A DNA stretch of 41,510 nucleotides, taken from the sequence record NC_047742.1. One strand, written 5' to 3'. Each line of letters starts with the position of its first letter. Position 1 is the stretch's first letter. Of the stretch, positions 1 through 40,396 are shown one piece after another. Below the pieces are notes generated by a model. That model saw nothing but the letters and a program-made list of their open reading frames with translations. It did not search any database and had not been told where the DNA came from. This DNA is from Enterobacteria phage IME_EC2. A program made the translations under genes and the position numbers.

Positions 1-58
1 TACCCGATCGGGCCGGACTCGGACCTGGTGGCCCGGTTGAGTGAATATCTTTACCCGG

Positions 59-103
59 ATAGCACGAATTGCTAAAAGCGATTTATCAAATGTTGTTATA
101 GTT
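59..103 (+). promoter_or_regulatory. Promoter-like cassette copy 1: dyad ATAGCACGAATTGCTAAAA, 22-bp spacer, TATAGT
   Basis: Read directly; same dyad recurs 6 times, always upstream of the first ORF of a gene block and in the same orientation relative to it. Confidence 0.5.
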
Positions 104-148
104 CTTTCACCGGGCGGCAATGGGTCGCCCACTACCGGAGAGATAACG

Positions 149-397
149 ATGGCAAACTTAACAATCATGGTAAAAGGCGATCAAGAGCGCGGGCGTCAGT
201 GGTCACGTAACTTTAAAAACCTGCTCCCGGCGTTCGTGAAAACTGGCACAGTTAAGCGCTATCTCTCATGGAAAGCGCCGGAGTTAACAGGCGAGGAGCC
301 GGAACTGGAGGAGCGCGTGGACGAGTTCATGACTCGCGGCGAGTTCGAACTGAATCGCCTGATCCACCGTAACAAGATCCGCGCCGACGAGTATTAA
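149..397 (+). CDS. hypothetical protein (83 aa)
   Basis: ORF 41..397 trimmed to ATG at 149 preceded by GGAGAGA; first gene after promoter cassette copy 1. Confidence 0.55.
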   Translation: MANLTIMVKGDQERGRQWSRNFKNLLPAFVKTGTVKRYLSWKAPELTGEEPELEERVDEFMTRGEFELNRLIHRNKIRADEY

Positions 398-2805: not shown

Positions 2806-2830
2806 GGGGGCCAGTTGGCCCCCTTTTTTA
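2806..2830. terminator. intrinsic terminator between convergent genes (GGGGGCC-AGTT-GGCCCCC + T-run)
   Basis: Stem-loop with T-run on plus strand; sits at the convergence of Rz (+) and the Ig-like gene (-). Confidence 0.7.
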
Positions 2831-3688: not shown

Positions 3689-3718
3689 GAGCCGCTTTTT
3701 AAGCGGCCCTTTTTTTTA
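3689..3718. terminator. intrinsic terminator (GAGCCGC-TTTTTAA-GCGGCCC + T8)
   Basis: Stem-loop flanked by T-run on plus side and U-rich on minus side. Confidence 0.65.
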
Positions 3719-7125: not shown

Positions 7126-7151
7126 AGCCCCCGCGCCGGGGCTTTTTTTTT
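7126..7151 (+). terminator. terminator-like hairpin (AGCCCC-CGCGCC-GGGGCT + T9), plus-strand polarity
   Basis: Strong hairpin plus T9 on the plus strand, abutting the stop of the minus-strand primase gene; minus-strand side has only an A-run upstream. Confidence 0.5.
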
Positions 7152-12351: not shown

Positions 12352-12903
12352 ATGGCATCACGCGGCGTTAACAAGGTGATTCTGGTCGGCAATCTGGGCC
12401 AGGATCCCGAAGTGCGTTATATGCCGTCGGGTGGAGCGGTGGCGAACATTACGATCGCCACCTCTGAATCCTGGCGCGACAAGCAGACGGGCGAACAGAA
12501 AGAACAGACGGAATGGCATCGCGTCGTATTGTTCGGCAAGCTGGCGGAGGTCGCCGGGGAGTATCTGCGCAAGGGTTCACAGGTTTACATTGAGGGCCAG
12601 CTTAGGACGCGCAAATGGACGGACCAAAGCGGCGCGGAGAAGTACACGACGGAGGTCGTCGTGAACGTCGGCGGCACTATGCAAATGCTCGGCGGGAAGA
12701 AAGAGGGAGGCCAGTCTGGGGGGAATGGACCTACCCACTCCGGCGGCGGTGGCAATTCTCGCAATTCTCCGGGCCGTGGCGCGTCTAATTCGCAAAATCC
12801 GGGCAAGGGTAGCGGGTCGGGTCCTGCGTCGTCTGGAGGCGCTTCTGGGGCCTCTAATGGCGGGGAGCCTCCGATGGACTTTGACGACGATATACCGTTT
12901 TAA
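12352..12903 (+). CDS. ssb: single-stranded DNA-binding protein
   Basis: OB-fold SSB N-terminus ([36 protein letters not shown]), Gly-rich linker, acidic tail DDDIPF. Confidence 0.9.
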
Positions 12904-13967: not shown

Positions 13968-13994
13968 AAGGGGCCAATTAAGGCCCCTTTTTTT
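13968..13994. terminator. bidirectional intrinsic terminator (GGGGCC-AATTAA-GGCCCC + T7)
   Basis: Hairpin with T-run on plus side and U-rich on minus side, at convergence of the plus-strand operon and tailspike gene. Confidence 0.7.
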
Positions 13995-19296: not shown

Positions 19297-20621
19297 TTAT
19301 AGCCCCTCCGGTAGAAAACCGTATTTTTCCTGAAATTGAGCCTTAACGCTAGGGGTAGGGTTCTGCATCAGGTAATTAATCGCGGCTTGCGCGTTCTGCT
19401 GCGGAATCCCCCCAGCGCTGAGGCGTCCGACGGCTTCCTGTTTCGCGTCGTCCTGCTTGATCTCGCGACGGTAGGACTCCACGCGCCCGCCCTGCGACTT
19501 CTCGATCGCGTCCTTGCCCTTGCTGAGTGCGTTCACGTAGCGCGTCATAACGTCCTTAAGCTGCTGCTCGCTCATGGTGCGCGGGTCTGCGTTGATCAGC
19601 GCCTGAGCGGCTGCGCGGCCCTCCTGCTCGGTCACTGGACCAGTACCACGCAAAGACTGAATACCCGCGACGCGGGCCTGGTCTTTAAGCTGGTTAAACT
19701 GGTTCATGATCTCCGCCGTGGCATCGCCGCCACCAGTAACCCACGACGCGCCCCTGTTAATCGCGCCCAGGTTGCCCGTCACGTAGGCCAGATCCTTACG
19801 CTGGAGGAGTCGCTGGGCCTGATCGATCGCCGTGGTGATCGGGGCGAGTTGCGTCTCGTAGGTCTGGAGAAAATCGCGCTTCGTGTTGAGGCTGTCGGCT
19901 TGCATTTTTGCTGCTGCTGCACGTACTTCTGTCGCTCAATATCGTTCTTTTCCTGCGCGATCCTCGTGTTGAGTCGCTCGGTCTGGAGTCCGATATATTT
20001 CAGATTTCGGTCTGCCGCGTTGCTCGCTGCGGTGACGTCCTGCCCCCTGATTACGGTCTGGTTCTTCATGTACTCTTTCGCGTAGTCCAGTTGGTCCTTG
20101 CTGGTATTGCTCGCCAGGTGGAGCGCCTGGACTGAGCGCTTGAACGCTTCCGGGTCCTGCGCTGCCGCCTGGTAGGCCACCTGCGGATCGATTCCCAGCG
20201 CCTGGAGCGCCGGGGCGTTCTGCTGGACGAATTGCTGGGCCATCTTCGGCCCCTGCGAGATCGCGACGTCGGCCTGGCTTGCAAGCTGGGATCCCTGCTG
20301 GCGTCGAATATCATCCACCAGTCCGAGGCGCTTCTGGAGCGCTTCGATCTGGGTAGGGTATTTGTAGGCCAGTTCGGAGATCTTGGACGGGTCGCCCGCT
20401 GCTGCTTGCCAGTCCTGATTGAACTGGGCCATTTGCGCCTGATTAGCTTGCGCCGCCTGAGTGGCGAGGCCCTGCTGGCGGTTCGCGATCTGCTGCGCCG
20501 TGTTGTTCTGAATCTGCCCGATATTGGCGAGGGTGTTAGTCCCCGCCGCCTGGATGTTCTGGAGGTTGTTCCACAGATCGCCCGGATCTGCGCCACCGCC
20601 ACCGCCTAGTAATTGCGCCAT
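19297..20621 (-). CDS. ejection protein (gp20 position), reading frame interrupted near 19905-19912
   Basis: Two ORFs (19779..20621 and 19297..19905) overlap in different frames; both Gln/Ala-rich; the upstream ORF becomes junk-like after an A5 run where the downstream frame opens. Confidence 0.45.
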
Positions 20622-25057: not shown

Positions 25058-26317
25058 TTACTGCTGGTTAGGCAGTACCAGGCCCACGTATTCCGGCACG
25101 AGGACGGAGCAACCGTAAAGCGTGGTGTAACGGCAGGTGGTCACGCCCGCGATGTGATCGAACGCGTAGGACATGATCAGAGTCGCGCCCTGTTTGGTGG
25201 TGGCTCGCATTACTTGCGGACCTTGACCAGTAGGGAACGCCAGATTACCGAACATCAGTTCCACGGAGCCGTCGGCCCACAGGATGTTAGCATTAGATGC
25301 CGTGTTGTTGATAACGGTCAGTTCCGCGCCGTTGGCGGCGTTCGCGTCCACGTTCGCGTAAGGGCGAGACGGCAGATCGGCGTTGTCCGGCGGCAGGATC
25401 TGAGGGGTGATCGTGATGTTGTTACCAGACACTCCCAGGACGCGGAACACTTGAGGGGTGTCCGTGGTGTCCTTGCTGATCATATGGACCATGTTCACGC
25501 CCGCGATGGTGAAGGCATCACCAGCGACCAGGCCGTGGGCTGCGGACACGGTGATCACGCCCTGGCGGTTATCGACCGGGAGATCGTTCGCGTCTTTCGC
25601 TTCGACTTTGTGAGCCGGAGCCGCTGCCAGGGTGATCGCTGCTGCGGAGCCAGCGCCCAGACGTGCGGAAATATCCGTCTCAAAGGACATGAAGCGAGCC
25701 ACGTCCGGGATCTGCGCCTTTTCGTATGCGGTCAGGGTTGCGCCCTGAGCATATGCGCGGGATCCGAGTTCTTTCGCCAGGAACTTGTTAGAGAACGAGT
25801 TCCAGAAGGCTTTTTTATTCGTACCCTGCGGGATGCCGATCGCGGTCATTTGTGCGCCGATCTGCGCTGCTGCGTCCCACAGGTCGCCGCCTAGCGTTCC
25901 GGTGCTGTTGTCGCCAGTGGTGGCGACGTGGGTCGCGTAACGCGCTGCGGTAGCGATCAGATCGGAGTCGATCTTCGCGGCTACGCGCTGGCCCGCTGCT
26001 CGGCCCATCTCTTTACGCTGCTCTGGGTCGCGCATTTCGCGAGCGTCCAGCTTAAAGAGAACGTTCTGAGGTTCTTTGAACACGGAAGGGACGAGGCGCT
26101 GGACGATATCGGTCCCGGCTTGTCCGGTCAGATCCAGACCTTCGATGATATCAGCGTGGTAACGCTGCGGACGGTGGATCACGTCCCCGGCGCGTTGCAT
26201 CGTCTGATCACCGGGGCGGAACTTCGCCGCGTTCTTCGACACGACGCAAGACGCCTCGAAGCTCTCCACATATTCCTCGAAAGCAATTTCGAGATCCTTC
26301 GCTAACTGGTTAGCCAT
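25058..26317 (-). CDS. major capsid (coat) protein, P22 gp5-like
   Basis: Aligns by eye with P22 coat (MQRAGDVIHRP versus MQRSSNTIWMP; YANVDANA...ILWADGSVEL versus YANVNTSL...NVFWADDAIRI); followed by strong terminator. Confidence 0.9.
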   Translation of the reverse strand: MANQLAKDLEIAFEEYVESFEASCVVSKNAAKFRPGDQTMQRAGDVIHRPQRYHADIIEGLDLTGQAGTDIVQRLVPSVFKEPQNVLFKLDAREMRDPEQRKEMGRAAGQRVAAKIDSDLIATAARYATHVATTGDNSTGTLGGDLWDAAAQIGAQMTAIGIPQGTNKKAFWNSFSNKFLAKELGSRAYAQGATLTAYEKAQIPDVARFMSFETDISARLGAGSAAAITLAAAPAHKVEAKDANDLPVDNRQGVITVSAAHGLVAGDAFTIAGVNMVHMISKDTTDTPQVFRVLGVSGNNITITPQILPPDNADLPSRPYANVDANAANGAELTVINNTASNANILWADGSVELMFGNLAFPTGQGPQVMRATTKQGATLIMSYAFDHIAGVTTCRYTTLYGCSVLVPEYVGLVLPNQQ

Positions 26318-26351: not shown

Positions 26352-27347
26352 TTACTTCTTTTCCCGCTTCTCTTTCGCCGCGAAGTATGCCGTATAATCC
26401 CCGGTTTCTTCGGCCTTCTTGCGAAGGGCTTCGAGTTGGCCCACGTTAGCGACTCCATTCTGGCCCTTAACGTCCGGCGTTTTGTTAAGCTGCTGCTTCG
26501 CCTTCGGTGCGGATCCCGCTCGGCTTTCAATATCGCGGATAAGATAGCCCAGCGCAATGTGATCGTTATTGTAAGCGTCCTCGACCTGTTTACGCAAATC
26601 AGCATTGCGTCCCAGTGCCATCACGAGCGCCGTCGGGTTCTGGCTGGTGATCATCAGGCCCGCCTGGAGTGGCTCCGGCAGTTCTGCGATCGCCGCTTCG
26701 GCCTTCTCAAATCCTGCGTACTTCTTGATCGCCTTTGCGCGTTCCGTCTGGTAGCGCGTCTGGCCTTCCTGGAATTTCTTCCCGAACGCTTCGCGCTTCG
26801 CTTCCTGCGCCGCCTGGTGCTGCTGGAAAGCTGCCTTATCCTCGGTCCACTTGTCCAGCGCTTCGGCGTACTTCTCCGGGTCCCAGTCGATCCCCTCGTC
26901 GCCCATTTCCGGCTTACGCGGCATGTCGGCGGGGATTTCCTGCGGATCCTTCTTCTGGGTGGATCCCTTAATCTGTTTTTTCTGCTCGCGAAGTTGAGCG
27001 CGGAGACGTTTCACCAGTTCGGTGTCGCCTTCCTGGTCGTCCTCGTCGGTCGGTTCAACGGTCACGGCTTTACCATCGAACAGGAACTCCTCCTCCTGAT
27101 CGTCGTCCTCGCCGTTCTCGCCTTCCTTCGTCTTAGGCTCGCCGTTTTCGTCCAGGTCCTGCTCGTCCGGGTCGGTGTCCGCGTTGCCGGGATCCTTCTC
27201 GTCCGGGTCGGTGTCTGGATTGTCGTCGGCGTTGTCGCCCTGCTGCCCTTGTTGAGCCTCATACGCCGCTGCGCCGCCGTCGCCGCCTCCCTGAGATCCG
27301 TCGTCGTGCTCTGCGTAATATTTCAAAAACATATTTCGGAATTTCAT
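26352..27347 (-). CDS. scaffolding protein (gp8 position)
   Basis: Immediately upstream of coat; highly acidic low-complexity N-terminal half and helical charged C-terminal half. Confidence 0.6.
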   Translation of the reverse strand: MKFRNMFLKYYAEHDDGSQGGGDGGAAAYEAQQGQQGDNADDNPDTDPDEKDPGNADTDPDEQDLDENGEPKTKEGENGEDDDQEEEFLFDGKAVTVEPTDEDDQEGDTELVKRLRAQLREQKKQIKGSTQKKDPQEIPADMPRKPEMGDEGIDWDPEKYAEALDKWTEDKAAFQQHQAAQEAKREAFGKKFQEGQTRYQTERAKAIKKYAGFEKAEAAIAELPEPLQAGLMITSQNPTALVMALGRNADLRKQVEDAYNNDHIALGYLIRDIESRAGSAPKAKQQLNKTPDVKGQNGVANVGQLEALRKKAEETGDYTAYFAAKEKREKK

Positions 27348-27473
27348 TGTAGATCCTCGTTTGTTGCATACGCGATGTTTTCGCCCATCGGTGGCGGGTG
27401 TAAGTTTAAGCGAGGACGGCGGGAAAATGCAAACAGGGGAGATCGCGATTAACGATCCCCCCAGTGTGGCGGG

Positions 27474-27740
27474 TTATTTCGTGGCGGCTCTTACGACCTG
27501 CTGGGAGAGGTAGAGCGCCTCGTGATGCGGTGGAACCGAAGCGGGGATCACGTAGTACAGCGCGACGTCTCCCCCGTCCTTCTCGAAGCCGTGGATCCTC
27601 TCACTGGCTACGATTCGCCAGCGGTTCCCCTCTGGCCCGGTCAGGAAGCCGTCCAGGTCGTGGAGTTCCGTCTCCACCTGGGCCAGCTTCGCGAGGGATG
27701 CGACTCCCCCGCTCGGAAAGGCTAAATAGTGATGTTTCAT
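27474..27740 (-). CDS. hypothetical protein (88 aa)
   Basis: ORF track; ATGA overlap with upstream gene. Confidence 0.5.
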   Translation of the reverse strand: MKHHYLAFPSGGVASLAKLAQVETELHDLDGFLTGPEGNRWRIVASERIHGFEKDGGDVALYYVIPASVPPHHEALYLSQQVVRAATK

Positions 27741-28173
27741 ACGATCTCGGCGTCCTCCACGTCGTCGTCTTTGCGCGGGTTGACTTCTTTCGCGCTGTCG
27801 GCTGCTGCCACGTAGTCGCCCTCGATCGGGCCTTTGTAGGTCAGTTGTTTGATGCTCGCGATATCGGCGAGGAGTTTCTGTTCCTGCATGTAGAAGTTAG
27901 CGCGGAGTGACTGGAGGCCAGTCTCCAGCAGTGGGAGAGCCAGTTCCGCGATGCGCTCGGCGGTCGGCTCGGTGTAGACGATCTCGATCTCACGAGTTTC
28001 TAACAGGACCATAGCCGGGTCCGTGTTGTCCTTGATGTGCTTCTCCACGCTGTACAGGTCGCCCAGGTCGTGGTCGGAGACGTAAGTCTCCCCGCGCTTG
28101 TAGAAGCTGGAGCGTGTACCGTCCGCGACGCACAGGCAAATGAATTGTTTTTGATGTAAGTTTTAGTAGTCAT
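27737..28173 (-). CDS. hypothetical protein, apparent frame change near 28140 (A5 run)
   Basis: ATG at 28173 with SD opens a frame (MTTKTYIKN) that turns junk-like; the -1 frame is protein-like and continues into ORF 27737..28048, which has no good start of its own. Confidence 0.4.
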
Positions 28174-28248
28174 TTTGTAGTCTCTCTGGTCAGTGGCGGG
28201 GACCATTCCCCGCCGACACAATCAATATAACATTTGATAATCTGGGCG

Positions 28249-28267
28249 TTTTAGCAATTCGTGCTAT
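28249..28267 (-). promoter_or_regulatory. Promoter-like dyad copy 4 (ATAGCACGAATTGCTAAAA on minus strand), TATATT 22 bp downstream
   Basis: Read directly; followed by conserved leader hairpin GGCGGGG-AATGGT-CCCCGCC and SD. Confidence 0.5.
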
Positions 28268-28680
28268 TTGGCGCGAGCGCCGATCATGGCTTGCCAGGTA
28301 AACACGACCGTATCGGAAAGAAGCTCGTCCACGCCTTCCTCCGCCATCTGCTCGTAAAGTCCATCGAGAGCGCCGGGGATCTGTTCCCAAAGGGCTTTAC
28401 GTCCGGCCTCGATCTGCTCCGCCGTCGGCTGGAGTTCCACCTCGATCGGAGCGGGTTCGACCTCTCCCGCCTTCACCTGCGGCTCCGCGTTGGTCATGAG
28501 TTCCGAAGCGCGAGCGCCGACCAGCGCCAGCGCCAGGCCATACGCCGCCAGATCCTCCTCGGTCGGCTGCTGGATGAAGCGAGCCGCCAGACGCGCCTCG
28601 TGTGCCTTCACTTTGTCGAGGATCCCCATCTCGTCGGCCTGAGCCAGAAGAACGGCGCGGATTACTTTTTCCTGGTTCAT
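28264..28680 (-). CDS. hypothetical protein (138 aa, acidic)
   Basis: ORF track. Confidence 0.5.
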   Translation of the reverse strand: MNQEKVIRAVLLAQADEMGILDKVKAHEARLAARFIQQPTEEDLAAYGLALALVGARASELMTNAEPQVKAGEVEPAPIEVELQPTAEQIEAGRKALWEQIPGALDGLYEQMAEEGVDELLSDTVVFTWQAMIGARAK

Positions 28681-28898
28681 GCGTAAGCCCCTTCGAATTG
28701 TGCGATCGACATTGGCGAGTAATACAGATTTAACTCGTACCCACAGATCCGCCCGTCTGGGCCGTTGATCGGCTCGCGGACTTTGACCTCCACGCGGCGC
28801 TCGTTGTCCGGGAACTCCGTCACGCTCACGATGTTACGGACCGGGAGGAGATACTTTTCCCCGGCGGCGTCTTTGACTGCTATCAGTGATCGGGCCAT
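28677..28898 (-). CDS. hypothetical protein (73 aa)
   Basis: ORF track; ATGA overlap with next gene. Confidence 0.5.
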   Translation of the reverse strand: MARSLIAVKDAAGEKYLLPVRNIVSVTEFPDNERRVEVKVREPINGPDGRICGYELNLYYSPMSIAQFEGAYA

Positions 28899-28993
28899 TC
28901 AAAACTCCTTTGTAATGGTTTAGTGATGTGTCGAGGCAAAGAATAGCCCGGACTTGCCGGGCTTGTCTTTAGCTTTTCGTGCGGTCCGACCAG

Positions 28994-31231
28994 TTACAGG
29001 CCAGCGAGTCCTAACTGGCGATCGGCGGACTGCTGCGCCTGGCGTTCTGCCATCTCGCGAGCGTTCCGATCCTCCTGCTGGTTGTGGCCTTGCCCCTGAG
29101 CCTTGAGGAACAGATCCGCCTGTTTGTGGGCGTCGCTGTTCTGCTGGCTCACGTACTTCTGGAGGACGGCGATCGCGTTCATTAGCTGATCCTGCGGGAT
29201 AGCCGCCGCCTCTGCCATCGTCTTGACCGTCTGCGCCTGTTTCAGATTGCCGTCGGACGCGGTGCTCTGCGCCTTGAGTTGCAATTCTAAGCGCTTGTTC
29301 TCCTGCTCCATCACTGCGGCCTGTCCCTGCTGCGCTACGCCCTGAGCGGCTACCATCTCCGGGTTTTCCTGCTGCTGGGCCGCTTGCTGGGCCTGTTGAA
29401 CAAGGGCTTTTTCTTCGTCCGTCTGCGGCTTAATGATGCCATTCAGGAGAAGCTGGCGGCGGCTGTACTCTTTGAAGTCCTGCAAGCCTTCGCCGTCCAT
29501 GTTCATGATGATCAGGCCCATGACTACGGCGGCGTTCGGGTCGCCTGGTGCCATCGACTGGAGGAGCGTCGTCAGGCTGCGGACGGTTGCGGTCCGTTTG
29601 GTGCTGCTGGACTCACCCACATCGGCCTCGACCTCATATTTCCCGCGTTTCAGGTCGTTAATCGCGATCGCCTCGTCCGTGTCGCGGTCGATCACTTTCC
29701 CGGTCATTAACACGAGATCGTCGGTCCCGTCCTCGTTCTTGATTCGGACGTAGTTCTCCGAGCCGTAGACCTTGCGGGCCGCGCTGAGGTAAACACGCCC
29801 GCAATGGCGGAGGGTTTTCCCCAGGTTGTCCATGTAGAGAGCGCCCTGTCCGTCCATACGGGCGAAAATGGCCTCCACGGTTTCGGTCGCAAGGTTCGAC
29901 GGAAGGGCCTCGACCTGGGAGGATCCGACGATCTGCTGGATAGTGCTCCCGGTGTACTGAAGGACCGCCGCCAGCGCTGGAGAGAGCGGAGTCGATGGCG
30001 TGTAACCCAGTGGCCCGGCTTGCTGCACGACCTCACCAGCGGCATTACGGAGCGATTTCGCGGGCAAGTATGCCGGGCGTTTCGTGTTACGTTCCCCCCA
30101 GGCGTCCGCCAGCTTGCCGGGAATCATGTCGATATCCATGATCGGGATGTTATCGCCGCCAGACTGCGCGGCCTGGTCCGCCATCATGGACACGATCAGG
30201 TTTTCCAGACGTTGCGCGTCGAGGGCCTGGGTCGCGTGACCGCTTACGCGCTCCATGTTGTCGATAAACGAGCGGCGGGCGTTGAACACGAAGATCGGGA
30301 TCCATTCGAACGGGATCAGCTTCGGCTCCTCGATCCATTCACCGCCGGACATAAGGCCGCAATAGACCTTACGGCGTTTCACTTTGCGGTCCTTCTGGCG
30401 CTCCCAGCCTCCGGCCTTAAGCTCGTCCTCGATCTGCTCGATCTCGTCCTCGTCGTACACCTCCACGTCCCCGGTGAGTGGGTTCTTATAGGAGATCACG
30501 GTGGTGTCCTCGATCTTCACCTCGTAGTAACGCGCCAGGTAGATCGCGTCCTTCGTGGCCCAGTCGAATTGTTTCCCGGTGTCCATCGCCAGCAGGTCCT
30601 CCGGGGCGAGCGCGTCGGGATATTTCTCCTCGTACTTGTCCGGGGTCATGCTGAATAGCTCCGCCATCCACATGGCATCCGAACGATCGTACATTTTGGA
30701 GTCCTGATCGATAAACAGGCACGAGGCCGGATCATAGATCGGATAAAAGACAATATGCCGGGCCTCGTTGTCCGGGTCGAACTCGTCCTCCAGTTCGGTG
30801 TCCATGCGGAAAGCGCCCATTCCGCCCGTCACGCCGTCGTCGTAGGTATTGTCCACGGACTCCGGCCCGTTCGACTCCTGGAAGTCGGCGCGGAACTTGC
30901 CGTTTAACTTGTCCGCCAGTTCTTCGGAGGCCTGGGTGTCCTTCGGGCGGAAAGTAACATTGATGCGGTTCAGTCGGTAGTCGGTGATAATGCGATCCAC
31001 CTCGCGCCCGACCTTGTTAAGCTCGAATCGAGGGTATTTCTGGAATCGTTCATCATCCATCGCAAAGCCGGAGTTCGTCGATCCTTCCCATTGTGCGCCC
31101 GGAATGCGGACGAAACGGGCCGTTTCGATCATCTTCTTACGACTGGACTCCTCGCTCCCGATCGCGGCGCTTAACTTATTACGTGCGCATTCCTGCCAGT
31201 TCTGCGCCTTCTTCGTTGCTCGTGCCATCAT
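28994..31231 (-). CDS. portal protein, P22 gp1-like
   Basis: Aligns by eye with P22 portal (YYEV, VKRRKVY versus IKRRRVY, PEMVAAQGVAQQGQAAV versus PAMVQAQGVLLQGQAEL); Gln-rich C-terminal barrel region. Confidence 0.9.
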   Translation of the reverse strand: MMARATKKAQNWQECARNKLSAAIGSEESSRKKMIETARFVRIPGAQWEGSTNSGFAMDDERFQKYPRFELNKVGREVDRIITDYRLNRINVTFRPKDTQASEELADKLNGKFRADFQESNGPESVDNTYDDGVTGGMGAFRMDTELEDEFDPDNEARHIVFYPIYDPASCLFIDQDSKMYDRSDAMWMAELFSMTPDKYEEKYPDALAPEDLLAMDTGKQFDWATKDAIYLARYYEVKIEDTTVISYKNPLTGDVEVYDEDEIEQIEDELKAGGWERQKDRKVKRRKVYCGLMSGGEWIEEPKLIPFEWIPIFVFNARRSFIDNMERVSGHATQALDAQRLENLIVSMMADQAAQSGGDNIPIMDIDMIPGKLADAWGERNTKRPAYLPAKSLRNAAGEVVQQAGPLGYTPSTPLSPALAAVLQYTGSTIQQIVGSSQVEALPSNLATETVEAIFARMDGQGALYMDNLGKTLRHCGRVYLSAARKVYGSENYVRIKNEDGTDDLVLMTGKVIDRDTDEAIAINDLKRGKYEVEADVGESSSTKRTATVRSLTTLLQSMAPGDPNAAVVMGLIIMNMDGEGLQDFKEYSRRQLLLNGIIKPQTDEEKALVQQAQQAAQQQENPEMVAAQGVAQQGQAAVMEQENKRLELQLKAQSTASDGNLKQAQTVKTMAEAAAIPQDQLMNAIAVLQKYVSQQNSDAHKQADLFLKAQGQGHNQQEDRNAREMAERQAQQSADRQLGLAGL

Positions 31232-33810: not shown

Positions 33811-33814
33811 AAAA

Positions 33815-33860
33815 AATCCTCCGGTTATCGCCTGAGTGTCACAGGGTTACGCGGAGGATT
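33815..33860 (-). promoter_or_regulatory. SD-sequestering stem-loop upstream of terS (AAUCCUCCG ... CGGAGGAUU followed by U6)
   Basis: 9-bp inverted repeat whose 3' arm contains the terS GGAGGA SD; U-run between hairpin and GTG start. Confidence 0.45.
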
Positions 33861-35939: not shown

Positions 35940-36140
35940 TTAAAAGCCGTCGTAGTAGCCAGGCAGTGCGCGGAGAGCCGCTTCGTCGTCGATCAGGTCC
36001 CACTCGGTCGGCTCAATGTCTGCCGCCTCTGCCATCTCGTGGGCGATGATACCAGCCACCAGCGGGGAGACGTTGCCCGTCGCTTTCTGGCGCTCGATCT
36101 CTGCCTGAATATCTGCGAGTGTATCGGATAATGATTTCAT
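35940..36140 (-). CDS. hypothetical protein (66 aa, acidic)
   Basis: ATG with GGGAGA SD; first gene after promoter cassette copy 5. Confidence 0.55.
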   Translation of the reverse strand: MKSLSDTLADIQAEIERQKATGNVSPLVAGIIAHEMAEAADIEPTEWDLIDDEAALRALPGYYDGF

Positions 36141-36211
36141 GATGTTCTCCCGGTCAGTGGCGGGACCATTTCCCGCCGTCAGAAGAACTATAACAACATT
36201 TGATAAGTGCG

Positions 36212-36230
36212 TTTTAGCAATTCGTGCTAT
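36212..36230 (-). promoter_or_regulatory. Promoter-like dyad copy 5 (ATAGCACGAATTGCTAAAA on minus strand), TATAGT 22 bp downstream
   Basis: Read directly; flanking about 90 bp nearly identical to copy 1 (inverted) and copy 4. Confidence 0.5.
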
Positions 36231-36499
36231 TCGATGCCGTCATAACGCCCGGCCTTGAACAGTGTCCCGTTTCGCCAGTCGTTCCACGCGAAGTAGGGCC
36301 AGATCACCAGCGTAACAGCCAGCACGAGGACCGCCAGCAATGCCACGATGAAGGCGACGAGAGGGATCAGGGAGGGAGGGATGGCCCTCACCTCCTCCGC
36401 CATCTTGCGGCCCAGGTAGGCCGCTGCTCCCGCCCTGCATTCCATGATGATATAAGCGACGCCCAGCATCAGGAAAGAGGCGATCAGTTCGTAGATCAT
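36227..36499 (-). CDS. small membrane protein (90 aa, 2-3 TM)
   Basis: Hydrophobic segments IASFLMLGVAYIIM and LIPLVAFIVALLAVLVLAVTLVIW. Confidence 0.55.
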   Translation of the reverse strand: MIYELIASFLMLGVAYIIMECRAGAAAYLGRKMAEEVRAIPPSLIPLVAFIVALLAVLVLAVTLVIWPYFAWNDWRNGTLFKAGRYDGIE

Positions 36500-37389: not shown

Positions 37390-37518
37390 CGTAACGTCCA
37401 GGCCGCGCTTAACTGCGTATTTTTGGTGGTTGCGTTGACTGCTGTCATGGTCTTGCCCTCTGAGTTGGTGGGCGTCTCGTCGCCCGGTGAAAACATATTA
37501 TCAATTATCACCGGGGAC

Positions 37519-38848: not shown

Positions 38849-40396
38849 TCATTTTTTGGTCGCATGTTCGAAGGCGTGGAAAAAGTCCGTCCGCTTAATC
38901 GGCGGCTCTGCGAAGTTGCGGAAGTGATCGGATAACATGCCTTTGGTCAGCTTCGGCAAGCGGTAGCCCTTGTCCTTGCGCTGCTGCGAGTATTCCACGA
39001 CGTAGGCCAGCAGTCGGATCGCCTGTTCCTCCTTCTTGCTGCGCTTGCGCGTGTCCTCCGGCTTCTCGCCCTCGTCCTTCTCGGCTGGCACTGCCTCCAG
39101 CGCGTTAATGACGACCAGCGTCCCCAGGTTGTCGCCGATCTCCCACGCCGCCGGGTTGGCCTTCGCCTCCGGGCGTACAGGCTGCATCCTCGCCAGCGCC
39201 TCGCGCTTCATCTTCACCAGGTCAGGCGGTAACTTCGCGGACTTCGTGCGCATGGCTCGCGCCGGGAGAAGCGCACAGCCTTTGGCCTTCGTGTGCTCAA
39301 TCACAAAAAGCTCTTTGTCCTTGCACTTCTTCACCATGATCTCGAATCCGGCGTTTGCCCTGAGCGTTGACGCGCCACGAGCGCCGCGCTCGGTGTCCTT
39401 CCCGGTGTGGTGGATGATCATCACGGCACAGTTAAGCCATTCAGCCAGTAACGCCGCGTTACGCATCAGGATCGCCGCCACGTTGTTGTCGTTCTCGTTG
39501 AAGTCGGTCCCGCCCTCCCAGCGGTCCGGCTCGTCGCCCTTGCCTGGGATCATGCGCTCGCCCACTTTCTGGCCCGCGCTGTTGGCGCTGTAGGTATCGA
39601 TCACGATCAGGGAAAGCGGGTTCAGGCCGAAGAATGGGGACGCCTTGATGGTTGCCGCGAACGTCTGGAGTTCGCTCTCGCGGTGTAGTGGGACCTGCTG
39701 GGACAATACCCAAAAGTTGGGTAACGGCTCGTTCTTGTTCTGCGTGTACTTCCATCCCGCGTAACGTTCACGGACGCCGCTCGCATCCTCCGGCGCGAAG
39801 TACATCACGGATCCCTGTCGGACTGGCAAGCCGCCGAAGTCGATCCCGGTGGCGACACAAATCGCCATTTGTAACGCTGCGAACGTTTTCTTTGCGCCGG
39901 ACTCGCCGACCAGGAAGCCCACGGAGCGCTCCGGGATCAGCGACTGGATCACATAGTTAACGGGCTTGATCTCGTTCGACTTGTTCAGGCTGGCGATCAG
40001 CGGGTCGTCCATTGCCTCGACCGCCAGCGCCTCGTCGATCTTCTTGCGCTGCTTCTCGCGCTGCTTCGCGAGGAGTTCCTGGCGACGTGCTTCGTCCTTC
40101 TCCTCGTCGGTGAGGTCTGACGTCTTGACGATCGTCGGCTTGTCGTTGCGGACGGTTGCCGTCCACTCTGCGGCCTCGTGCTCGTCGAAGTCGAAGAACG
40201 CCCCGGCATCCTGGGCGGATTCTGCTTCTCTCGCCGCGTACAGGCTGGCCTGTTCCTCGTAGAACTCCATAGGAGCCTCTGGCACGTCGTCAGCAGGTGG
40301 AGGCGTTACCGGGCCGGAGAACTCGCCCCGGACCATCTCGATCAGCTCCTCCTCGCTGCGCTCTGGTGTCGGCATTACTTCATCATAATCAGTCAT
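38849..40396 (-). CDS. RepA-like RecA-fold AAA ATPase (putative replicative helicase)
   Basis: Walker A GESGAKKT, Walker B-like LIVIDTYS, IIHHTGKD; acidic disordered N-terminal region. Confidence 0.7.
   Translation of the reverse strand: MTDYDEVMPTPERSEEELIEMVRGEFSGPVTPPPADDVPEAPMEFYEEQASLYAAREAESAQDAGAFFDFDEHEAAEWTATVRNDKPTIVKTSDLTDEEKDEARRQELLAKQREKQRKKIDEALAVEAMDDPLIASLNKSNEIKPVNYVIQSLIPERSVGFLVGESGAKKTFAALQMAICVATGIDFGGLPVRQGSVMYFAPEDASGVRERYAGWKYTQNKNEPLPNFWVLSQQVPLHRESELQTFAATIKASPFFGLNPLSLIVIDTYSANSAGQKVGERMIPGKGDEPDRWEGGTDFNENDNNVAAILMRNAALLAEWLNCAVMIIHHTGKDTERGARGASTLRANAGFEIMVKKCKDKELFVIEHTKAKGCALLPARAMRTKSAKLPPDLVKMKREALARMQPVRPEAKANPAAWEIGDNLGTLVVINALEAVPAEKDEGEKPEDTRKRSKKEEQAIRLLAYVVEYSQQRKDKGYRLPKLTKGMLSDHFRNFAEPPIKRTDFFHAFEHATKK

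What the first reader, a model, noticed from the sequence alone, without database searches (positions are those of the whole stretch)
27990..28173. Frame change at an A-run inside an accessory gene
An ATG at 28173 with a good SD opens a frame that becomes Ser/Thr/Arg-rich junk after about 9 codons, while the -1 frame is protein-like and continues to 27737. The switch coincides with ATCAAAAACAA. There is no canonical X-XXY-YYZ heptamer, so a homopolymer indel or a recent mutation is more likely than programmed frameshifting.
Basis: seen in the sequence. Interest (0 to 1): 0.4.

Follow-up and report, generated by a model that had tools for sequence, protein, structure and literature searches.

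The report
Sequencing-error frameshift in phage gene
The frame change is really in this deposited phage genome, but it is almost certainly a one-base homopolymer miscall from Ion Torrent sequencing: adding one A restores a 145-residue gene that is intact in every relative.

Summary
The window is Enterobacteria phage IME_EC2 (41,510 bp, genus Murrayvirus). On the minus strand, ATG 28173 opens a frame that matches homologues for only 9 codons. It then runs as junk to a stop at 28000. The -1 frame matches homologues from the A-run (28148..28152) to the stop at 27737.

The closest phage, sortsyn, is identical around the site except that it has A6 where the window has A5. That gives sortsyn one continuous ORF. 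Five independent close relatives have AAAAAA or AAGCAA at this position. All 20 database homologues, 9 distinct phage records and one additional viral contig carry a single unbroken ORF. The N-terminal 42 residues upstream of the annotated GTG start (IME_EC2_38, 103 aa) are conserved.

Three other genes in the same window are broken in the same way, by a T/A run one base shorter than in relatives. One is a P22 gp20-like injection protein. The IME-EC2 genome was sequenced on an Ion Torrent PGM, whose typical error is homopolymer indels.

Best explanation: an assembly or base-calling artefact (about 0.87). A real mutation in a dispensable accessory gene is possible (about 0.1). Programmed frameshifting is very unlikely. 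The protein's function is unknown.

The parts
28148..28152 (-). A5 run (ATC AAAAA CAA) where the reading frame changes. Relatives have six bases here (AAAAAA or AAGCAA).
27737..28173 (-). The whole gene as it should read: 437 nt in the window, 438 nt (145 codons plus stop) after adding one A. It is an orthologue of sortsyn_51 (QHR72916.1).
   Evidence: the repaired protein is 145 aa and 132/145 identical to sortsyn
28000..28173 (-). Frame-0 ORF from the true ATG. Nine genuine codons are followed by 48 out-of-frame Ser/Thr/Arg-rich codons and a stop at 28002..28000.
27737..28048 (-). The 103-aa GTG ORF deposited as IME_EC2_38 (P0007). It is a truncated call that lacks the conserved N-terminal 42 residues. 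No Shine-Dalgarno-like sequence precedes the GTG.
   Evidence: sequence read
28049..28162 (-). -1 frame stretch upstream of the GTG with no ATG/GTG/TTG start. It encodes conserved residues, including the invariant C13, C15, R27 and G28.
28181..28187 (-). AGAGAGA Shine-Dalgarno-like sequence, 7 nt upstream of ATG 28173.
   Evidence: the same GAGAGA/GGGAGA-to-ATG arrangement occurs in two other copies of the upstream module
28195..28214 (-). GC-rich hairpin (GGCGGGGA-ATGG-TCCCCGCC) in the presumed 5' leader. It is part of a module repeated three times in the genome.
28224..28267 (-). Conserved promoter-like part of the module: ATAGCACGAATTGCTAAAA ... TG-T-TATATT (extended -10-like). It overlaps the stop codon of the upstream gene (28264..28266).
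   Evidence: The promoter function is inferred. The sigma-70 scan did not list it because it has no -35 match.

Best explanation
The frame change is a one-base undercall of a homopolymer (A6 read as A5 at 28148..28152, minus strand) in the Ion Torrent-derived assembly of phage IME_EC2. In the real phage the gene most likely reads ATG 28173 ... ATC AAA AAA CAA TTC ... to the stop at 27737. That encodes one 145-residue protein, MTTKTYIKKQFICLCVADG...DAEIV.

The deposited annotation (IME_EC2_38, 103 aa from GTG 28048) is a by-product of the error.

The protein belongs to a small, uncharacterised phage family. Where present, its gene sits between the portal and scaffold genes of P22-like head modules. 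The predicted architecture is an N-terminal beta domain, then a long helix, then an acidic disordered tail.

Shown: the indel, its exact position, its uniqueness among relatives, the three sister lesions, and the sequencing platform. Inferred: that the error lies in the sequence and not in the phage.
For: - Site: sortsyn is identical around the site except A6 versus A5, and has one ORF.
- Close relatives: five independent ones (sortsyn, an ENA scaffold, and three groups of Logan/ENA contigs) have AAAAAA or AAGCAA, never five bases.
- Wider family: 20 of 20 database homologues are full length at 144-161 aa. All 9 distinct phage records give a single full-length tblastn piece. So do 3 IMG/VR loci, two of which appear to be the same genomes as two of those phage records.
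- The N-terminal part lost by the frameshift is conserved (invariant C13, C15, R27, G28). In the AlphaFold model it forms the first strands of a confident beta domain (pLDDT about 90).
- ATG 28173 is the true start. It lies at the end of a promoter/hairpin/SD module present three times in the genome, each copy ending at an ATG.
- Same lesion elsewhere in the window, always one base short in a T/A run and always breaking a gene that is intact in at least 2 relatives:
  - 19905..19909 splits a 441-aa P22 gp20-like Inj_translocase gene (repaired: 434/441 identical to sortsyn).
  - 37420..37424 breaks a 92-aa gene after codon 9 (the repaired translation reads the same as sortsyn's).
  - 38852..38857 truncates a 562-aa AAA_25 protein to 515 aa (repaired: 561/562 identical).
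  - Sources.
- Length dependence: among runs with conserved flanks, 5 of 15 A/T runs of 6 or more differ in length from sortsyn. None of the 80 runs of length 5 or of G/C differ.
- Platform: IME-EC2 (41,510 bp) was sequenced on an Ion Torrent PGM (PMC3896407). Indels in homopolymers dominate that platform's errors (PMC4342091).
- Established knowledge: P22 ejection protein gp20 is needed for infectivity, so a truly split gp20 homologue in a plaque-forming isolate is unlikely.
Against: - No reads are available, so the error is inferred and not seen.
- Real replication slippage also favours homopolymers and is length-dependent.
- The gene is accessory, since several Murrayvirus genomes lack it, so a true knockout would probably be tolerated.
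- Read depth was high according to the source paper. A consensus error therefore needs a systematic miscall, not a random one. That is typical of Ion Torrent but is not proven here.
Confidence: 0.87

Rival explanations
1. A real, recent one-base deletion in the phage. The accessory gene is a fresh pseudogene in IME_EC2, producing a 57-residue out-of-frame peptide and little or no C-terminal product.
For: - The gene is dispensable at genus level. It is absent from the corresponding slot in Lumpael, sortregn and ST231, and tblastn finds no match in Sortsne.
- A-runs are natural slippage hot spots.
- The rest of the gene shows no further decay (97% identity to P0001). That fits either a very recent event or an artefact.
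Against: - Three other genes carry the same kind of lesion, among them a gp20-like injection protein and the AAA_25 replication protein. Four simultaneous real frameshifts in a viable isolate are implausible.
- The platform is prone to exactly this error.
Confidence: 0.1
2. Recoding: the full-length protein is made from the A5 template by programmed -1 (or +2) ribosomal frameshifting, or by transcriptional slippage on the A-run.
For: - The shift site is an A-run near the 5' end of the gene. The sequence C AAA AAC partly resembles the shift-prone A AAA AAG (established knowledge of dnaX and IS elements).
- The downstream RNA folds slightly better than shuffles (z = -1.83).
Against: - There is no X XXY YYZ heptamer.
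- Five A's are well below the run length usually needed for efficient transcriptional slippage (about 8-9 or more; established knowledge).
- The two-frame arrangement is not conserved in any of about 30 relatives. These have the same downstream sequence in a single frame.
- The fold z-score is not significant, and there is no Rfam match.
Confidence: 0.02
3. Two genuine separate genes, as in the deposited annotation: a short upstream ORF and a 103-aa protein starting at GTG 28048.
For: The GenBank record annotates the 103-aa ORF (P0007).
Against: - The 38 codons upstream of the GTG in the same frame are conserved as protein in all homologues yet contain no start codon.
- No SD precedes the GTG.
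- The frame-0 tail has no homologue, whereas all relatives encode one protein.
Confidence: 0.01

Closest known systems
Escherichia phage sortsyn gene sortsyn_51 (QHR72916.1), Murrayvirus EC2 species
   Same: Orthologous gene in the same position (portal, two small genes, this gene, a small gene, scaffold, coat). The gene-region DNA alignment shows 95% mean column identity. The protein is 91% identical after repair. The sequence around the A-run is identical.
   Different: sortsyn has A6 and one continuous ORF, whereas the window has A5. The sortsyn annotation starts 11 codons further upstream, at an ATG inside the leader hairpin. The homologue alignment and the repeated leader module favour the MTTKT start.
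Ion Torrent / pyrosequencing homopolymer-length miscalls in finished phage genomes
   Same: A single-base shortfall in an A/T run of 6-7. Several such lesions occur in one assembly, each splitting or truncating a conserved gene. The platform is documented for this genome.
   Different: Nothing distinguishes it, but the reads themselves could not be inspected.
Programmed -1 frameshift sites on A-rich heptamers (E. coli dnaX A AAA AAG; IS element transposases)
   Same: An A-run at the frame junction, with the -1 frame carrying the conserved downstream sequence.
   Different: The heptamer is incomplete (C AAA AAC). There is no conserved stimulator. The shift is not conserved in homologues. The zero-frame product would be a meaningless 57-mer, not a functional short isoform.
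P22-like head-gene module (portal gp1, scaffold gp8, coat gp5)
   Same: The flanking genes match Pfam P22_portal and P22_CoatProtein in relatives, and downstream genes match P22_Tail-4, P22_gp7 and Inj_translocase.
   Different: P22 itself has no genes between portal and scaffold (own knowledge). This lineage carries a variable cassette of 2-4 small genes there, including the gene studied.

Membership tests
Sequencing homopolymer-indel artefact | The indel lies inside a homopolymer, and adding or removing one base restores a full-length conserved ORF. | tested here: met
   A5 versus A6. The repaired ORF is 145 aa, the same length as the orthologues, and 132/145 identical to sortsyn.
Sequencing homopolymer-indel artefact | The same assembly shows further lesions of the same type in conserved or essential genes. 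| tested here: met
   Three more, at 19905..19909, 37420..37424 and 38852..38857. All are one base short and all restore full-length proteins when repaired.
Sequencing homopolymer-indel artefact | The data come from a platform with homopolymer-length errors. | tested here: met
   PMC3896407 states that IME-EC2 was sequenced on an Ion Torrent PGM. PMC4342091 reports that indels in homopolymers dominate PGM errors.
Sequencing homopolymer-indel artefact | Reads or independent resequencing show the longer run. | not testable with these tools
   No read data were accessible.
Programmed -1 ribosomal frameshift | A slippery heptamer X XXY YYZ in the zero frame at the junction. | tested here: not met
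   The sequence is C AAA AAC. No canonical heptamer occurs anywhere in 28173..28000.
Programmed -1 ribosomal frameshift | A stimulatory RNA structure a few nucleotides downstream. | tested here: inconclusive
   The MFE is -33 kcal/mol, z = -1.83, and 7 of 200 shuffles fold as well. The same sequence is read in a single frame in relatives.
Programmed -1 ribosomal frameshift | The two-frame architecture is conserved among homologues. | tested here: not met
   All homologues are single ORFs.
Transcriptional slippage / phase-variable repeat tract | A long homopolymer (about 8-9 or more), with tract length varying between on and off states among strains. | tested here: not met
   The run is 5 (6 in relatives). 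Two relatives interrupt it as AAGCAA. No relative is out of frame.
sortsyn_51-like small phage protein family (unnamed; no Pfam/PHROG/NCBIfam model) | Full-length sequence similarity, including the N-terminal CxC motif and the C-terminal LADIASI.QLTYKGP.EGD..AAAD block. | tested here: met
   E = 1e-86 to 1e-37 over 92-100% of the repaired protein. The invariant columns are listed. No curated family matches.

The most novel reading that the evidence does not exclude
The A5 run is real. On this reading IME_EC2 carries four genes, among them its gp20-like injection protein and an AAA_25 replication protein, each interrupted at short A-runs. The full-length proteins would be made by unusually efficient slippage (transcriptional or ribosomal) on runs of only 5-6 A. 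That would be a recoding strategy not seen in its sister phages.
Probability: 0.02. Interest if true: 0.55.

Novelty: not a real feature. Interest (0 to 1): 0.07.

Why it matters
The finding matters mainly as curation. The public IME_EC2 record, exemplar of the species Murrayvirus EC2, probably carries at least four frameshift errors. These mis-annotate a small conserved gene (IME_EC2_38), split the gp20-like injection protein, break a 92-aa gene, and truncate the AAA_25 replication protein. Anyone using this genome for pan-genome, pseudogene or recoding surveys would be misled.

There is no new biology in the frame change itself. The gene family it hits is uncharacterised but conserved next to the portal gene in three phage genera. 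Many members carry an SSB-like ...DIPF C-terminal tip, which is a separate small lead.

Tried and rejected
- Function of the repaired protein: Pfam, PHROGs, NCBIfam and PADLOC gave no match. A profile search of PDB sequences gave no match.
- A profile search of 1.84 billion cluster representatives found only 5 clusters, so the family is small and no annotated relative emerged.
- An AlphaFold model of the 97%-identical P0001 (mean pLDDT 78) was compared with three libraries.
  - PDB by Foldseek: best E = 0.1.
  - BFVD: the only convincing hit is an uncharacterised Skarpretter protein. Weak phi29 p6-like 'dsDNA-binding' hits at E = 0.16-0.9 were not accepted.
  - No fold assignment resulted.
- Exact-pattern scans for the A5 or A6 junction in IMG/VR and JGI metagenome contigs found nothing.
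- Megablast against complete E. coli genomes and against plasmids found no copy, so no prophage or plasmid copy was found.
- Rfam gave nothing relevant in 27300..29000.
- The sigma-70 scan did not list a promoter upstream of the gene. The promoter-like reading of the repeated module rests on its conservation and its extended -10-like TGTTATATT only.
- Considered and rejected: initiation at GTG 28048 as the true start; programmed frameshifting; a phase-variable tract.

Full report
**Identity of the window**

The 103-aa ORF at 27737..28048 (minus strand) is an exact database entry, 'hypothetical protein IME_EC2_38 [Enterobacteria phage IME_EC2]'. It lies on a contig of 41,510 bp, the length of the window. 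The nearest deposited genome is Escherichia phage sortsyn (species Murrayvirus EC2). It is 93-99% identical over the whole window.

On the minus strand the local gene order is:
- portal (28994..31231)
- two small genes (28677..28898 and 28264..28680)
- the gene in question
- an 88-aa gene (27474..27740)
- scaffold (26352..27347)
- coat (25058..26317)

ATG 28173 is preceded by AGAGAGA, 7 nt upstream. Frame 0 reads MTTKTYIKN and then 48 Ser/Thr/Arg-rich codons to a stop at 28000. The -1 frame is open from 28162 to 27737. It has no ATG, GTG or TTG before GTG 28048.

The window has ATC-AAAAA-CAA and sortsyn has ATC-AAAAAA-CAA. With six A's, sortsyn encodes one protein...MTTKTYIKKQFICLCVADGTRSSFYKRGETYVSDHDLGDLYSVEKH.... 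Inserting one base in the window gives a 145-aa protein of the same length as the orthologues, 132/145 identical to sortsyn.

**Is the split conserved?**

It is not.
- A database search with the repaired protein found 20 homologues besides the truncated IME_EC2 entry. All are 144-161 aa and cover 92-100% of the query.
- Their alignment shows that the part lost from the deposited annotation (residues 1-42) is conserved, with invariant M1, C13, C15, R27 and G28.
- DNA of five independent close relatives reads AAAAAA or AAGCAA at the site, always six bases.
- tblastn against 50,697 phage records found 9 distinct phages in Murrayvirus, Hungariovirus, Skarprettervirus and others. Each has one unbroken full-length match.
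- Three IMG/VR loci behave the same way.
- No copy with five bases was found in any collection.

**The start codon**

The roughly 95 nt upstream of ATG 28173 form a module that occurs three times in the genome: at 55..165 (+), 28165..28270 (-) and 36125..36235 (-). The module contains:
- a conserved ATAGCACGAATTGCTAAAA block
- an extended -10-like TGTTATA(T/G)T
- a GC hairpin whose arms differ between the three copies while the stem-forming potential is kept
- ACTGACC
- GAGAGA
- an ATG at a fixed distance

Together with the homologue N-termini, they identify ATG 28173 as the true start. GTG 28048 has no Shine-Dalgarno sequence.

**Artefact or mutation?**

A whole-genome comparison with sortsyn listed every indel. 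In the well-aligned parts, four isolated one-base gaps fall inside genes. In all four the window is one base short in a T run on the plus strand, which is an A run in the gene.

| Run in window (plus strand) | Window vs sortsyn | Effect | After repair |
|---|---|---|---|
| 19905..19909 | T5 vs T6 | Splits a 441-aa gene into ORFs 19779..20621 and 19297..19905. The first carries Pfam Inj_translocase, the P22 injectosome protein. | 441 aa, 434/441 identical |
| 28148..28152 | T5 vs T6 | The present case | 145 aa, 132/145 identical |
| 37420..37424 | T5 vs T6 | Breaks a 92-aa gene nine codons after its ATG at 37448 | Translation reads the same as sortsyn's |
| 38852..38857 | T6 vs T7 | Truncates a 562-aa AAA_25 protein to 515 aa | 561/562 identical |

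A second relative, an ENA metagenome contig, agrees with sortsyn on length at every one of these sites. It encodes the 441-, 92- and 562-aa proteins intact.

The effect depends on run length. Among runs with conserved flanks, 5 of 15 A/T runs of six or more differ in length between the two genomes. None of the 80 runs of length five or of G/C differ.

The paper that reports this genome states that IME-EC2 (41,510 bp) was sequenced on an Ion Torrent PGM (PMC3896407). On that platform indels dominate the errors and nearly all lie in homopolymers (PMC4342091).

P22 gp20 is required for infectivity (established knowledge). A plaque-forming isolate with a truly split homologue, plus three other frameshifts, is therefore improbable. 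I put the artefact at about 0.87 and a real recent deletion in this dispensable gene at about 0.1.

**Programmed recoding**

- No X XXY YYZ heptamer exists in frame 0 in the overlap region.
- For the product to keep the conserved Cys13 and Cys15, the shift must occur before codon 13, so only C AAA AAC is available.
- Five A's are too few for efficient transcriptional slippage (established knowledge).
- The 97 nt downstream fold only marginally better than shuffles (z = -1.83), and they are read in a single frame in all relatives.
- Rfam gives nothing relevant.

I put recoding at about 0.02.

**What the gene is**

No curated family matches, and there is no PDB sequence match. An exhaustive profile search finds only five 50%-identity clusters.

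The AlphaFold model of the 97%-identical P0001 has:
- a confident beta domain, strands 3-17, 30-33 and 54-68 (pLDDT about 90)
- a 40-residue helix (72-112)
- a disordered acidic tail

The frameshift therefore removes the first long strand of the domain.

Fold searches gave no convincing match apart from an uncharacterised Skarpretter protein. Weak resemblances to phi29 p6-type DNA-binding proteins (E above 0.1) are not evidence.

The gene keeps its place directly after the portal gene and before the scaffold gene in three genera. It is missing from that slot in several Murrayvirus genomes. It is therefore an accessory gene of the head-gene region with unknown function.

**Verdict**

The finding is ordinary: a homopolymer miscall in an Ion Torrent assembly, one of at least four in this record. 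It is useful as a correction to the public annotation and not as biology.

Noticed in passing
window 19905..19909 (ORFs 19779..20621 and 19297..19905, minus strand): A T5 run that is one base shorter than in sortsyn splits the 441-aa P22 gp20-like injection protein (Pfam Inj_translocase) into two overlapping ORFs. Adding one base restores 441 aa, 434/441 identical to sortsyn. It is probably the same kind of sequencing error.
   Followed up: yes
window 37420..37424 (gene from ATG 37448, minus strand): T5 versus T6 in sortsyn breaks a 92-aa conserved gene (the sortsyn_35 orthologue) nine codons after its start. The repaired protein reads the same as sortsyn's.
   Followed up: yes
window 38852..38857 (ORF 38849..40396, minus strand): T6 versus T7 in sortsyn and in an ENA contig truncates the AAA_25 (helicase/primase-like) protein from 562 to 515 aa. 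The repaired protein is 561/562 identical to sortsyn.
   Followed up: yes
window 55..165 (+), 28165..28270 (-), 36125..36235 (-): A roughly 95-nt module is repeated three times, each copy ending at an ATG. It has a conserved ATAGCACGAATTGCTAAAA block, an extended -10-like TGTTATA(T/G)T, a GC hairpin whose arms differ between copies while keeping the stem, then ACTGACC and GAGAGA. It is probably a phage promoter plus 5' leader. One copy sits inside the head-gene cluster, just upstream of the studied gene.
   Followed up: partly
homologues P0004-P0006 and P0009-P0021 (e.g. L008:10001-10477); window 12352..12903 (+): Most homologues of the studied protein carry an extra acidic C-terminal extension ending ...LDIPF or ...GIPF. 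This resembles the SSB C-terminal tip. The phage's own SSB ends [16 protein letters not shown]2, sortsyn, P0001, P0002 and P0008 lack this tail. It could mean that family members dock onto SSB-tip-binding proteins. This was not tested.
   Followed up: partly
window 2824..2829, 3710..3717, 7143..7151, 13988..13994, 33811..33816: Intergenic T/A runs, mostly terminator tails, also differ by one base from sortsyn, in both directions. One of them (33811..33816) has the same length in another relative (L010). At least some of these differences may therefore be natural variation and not errors.
   Followed up: partly
L001:2242-2712 (sortsyn_51 annotation): The sortsyn record starts this gene 11 codons upstream, at an ATG inside the leader hairpin (MVPATDQRDYK-MTTKT...). 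The homologue alignment and the repeated leader module favour the MTTKT start.
   Followed up: partly
window 27474..28898 compared with L002, L003, L004: The slot between the portal and scaffold genes is a variable cassette. Murrayvirus genomes carry different sets of 2-4 small genes there. P22 itself has none (own knowledge).
   Followed up: partly
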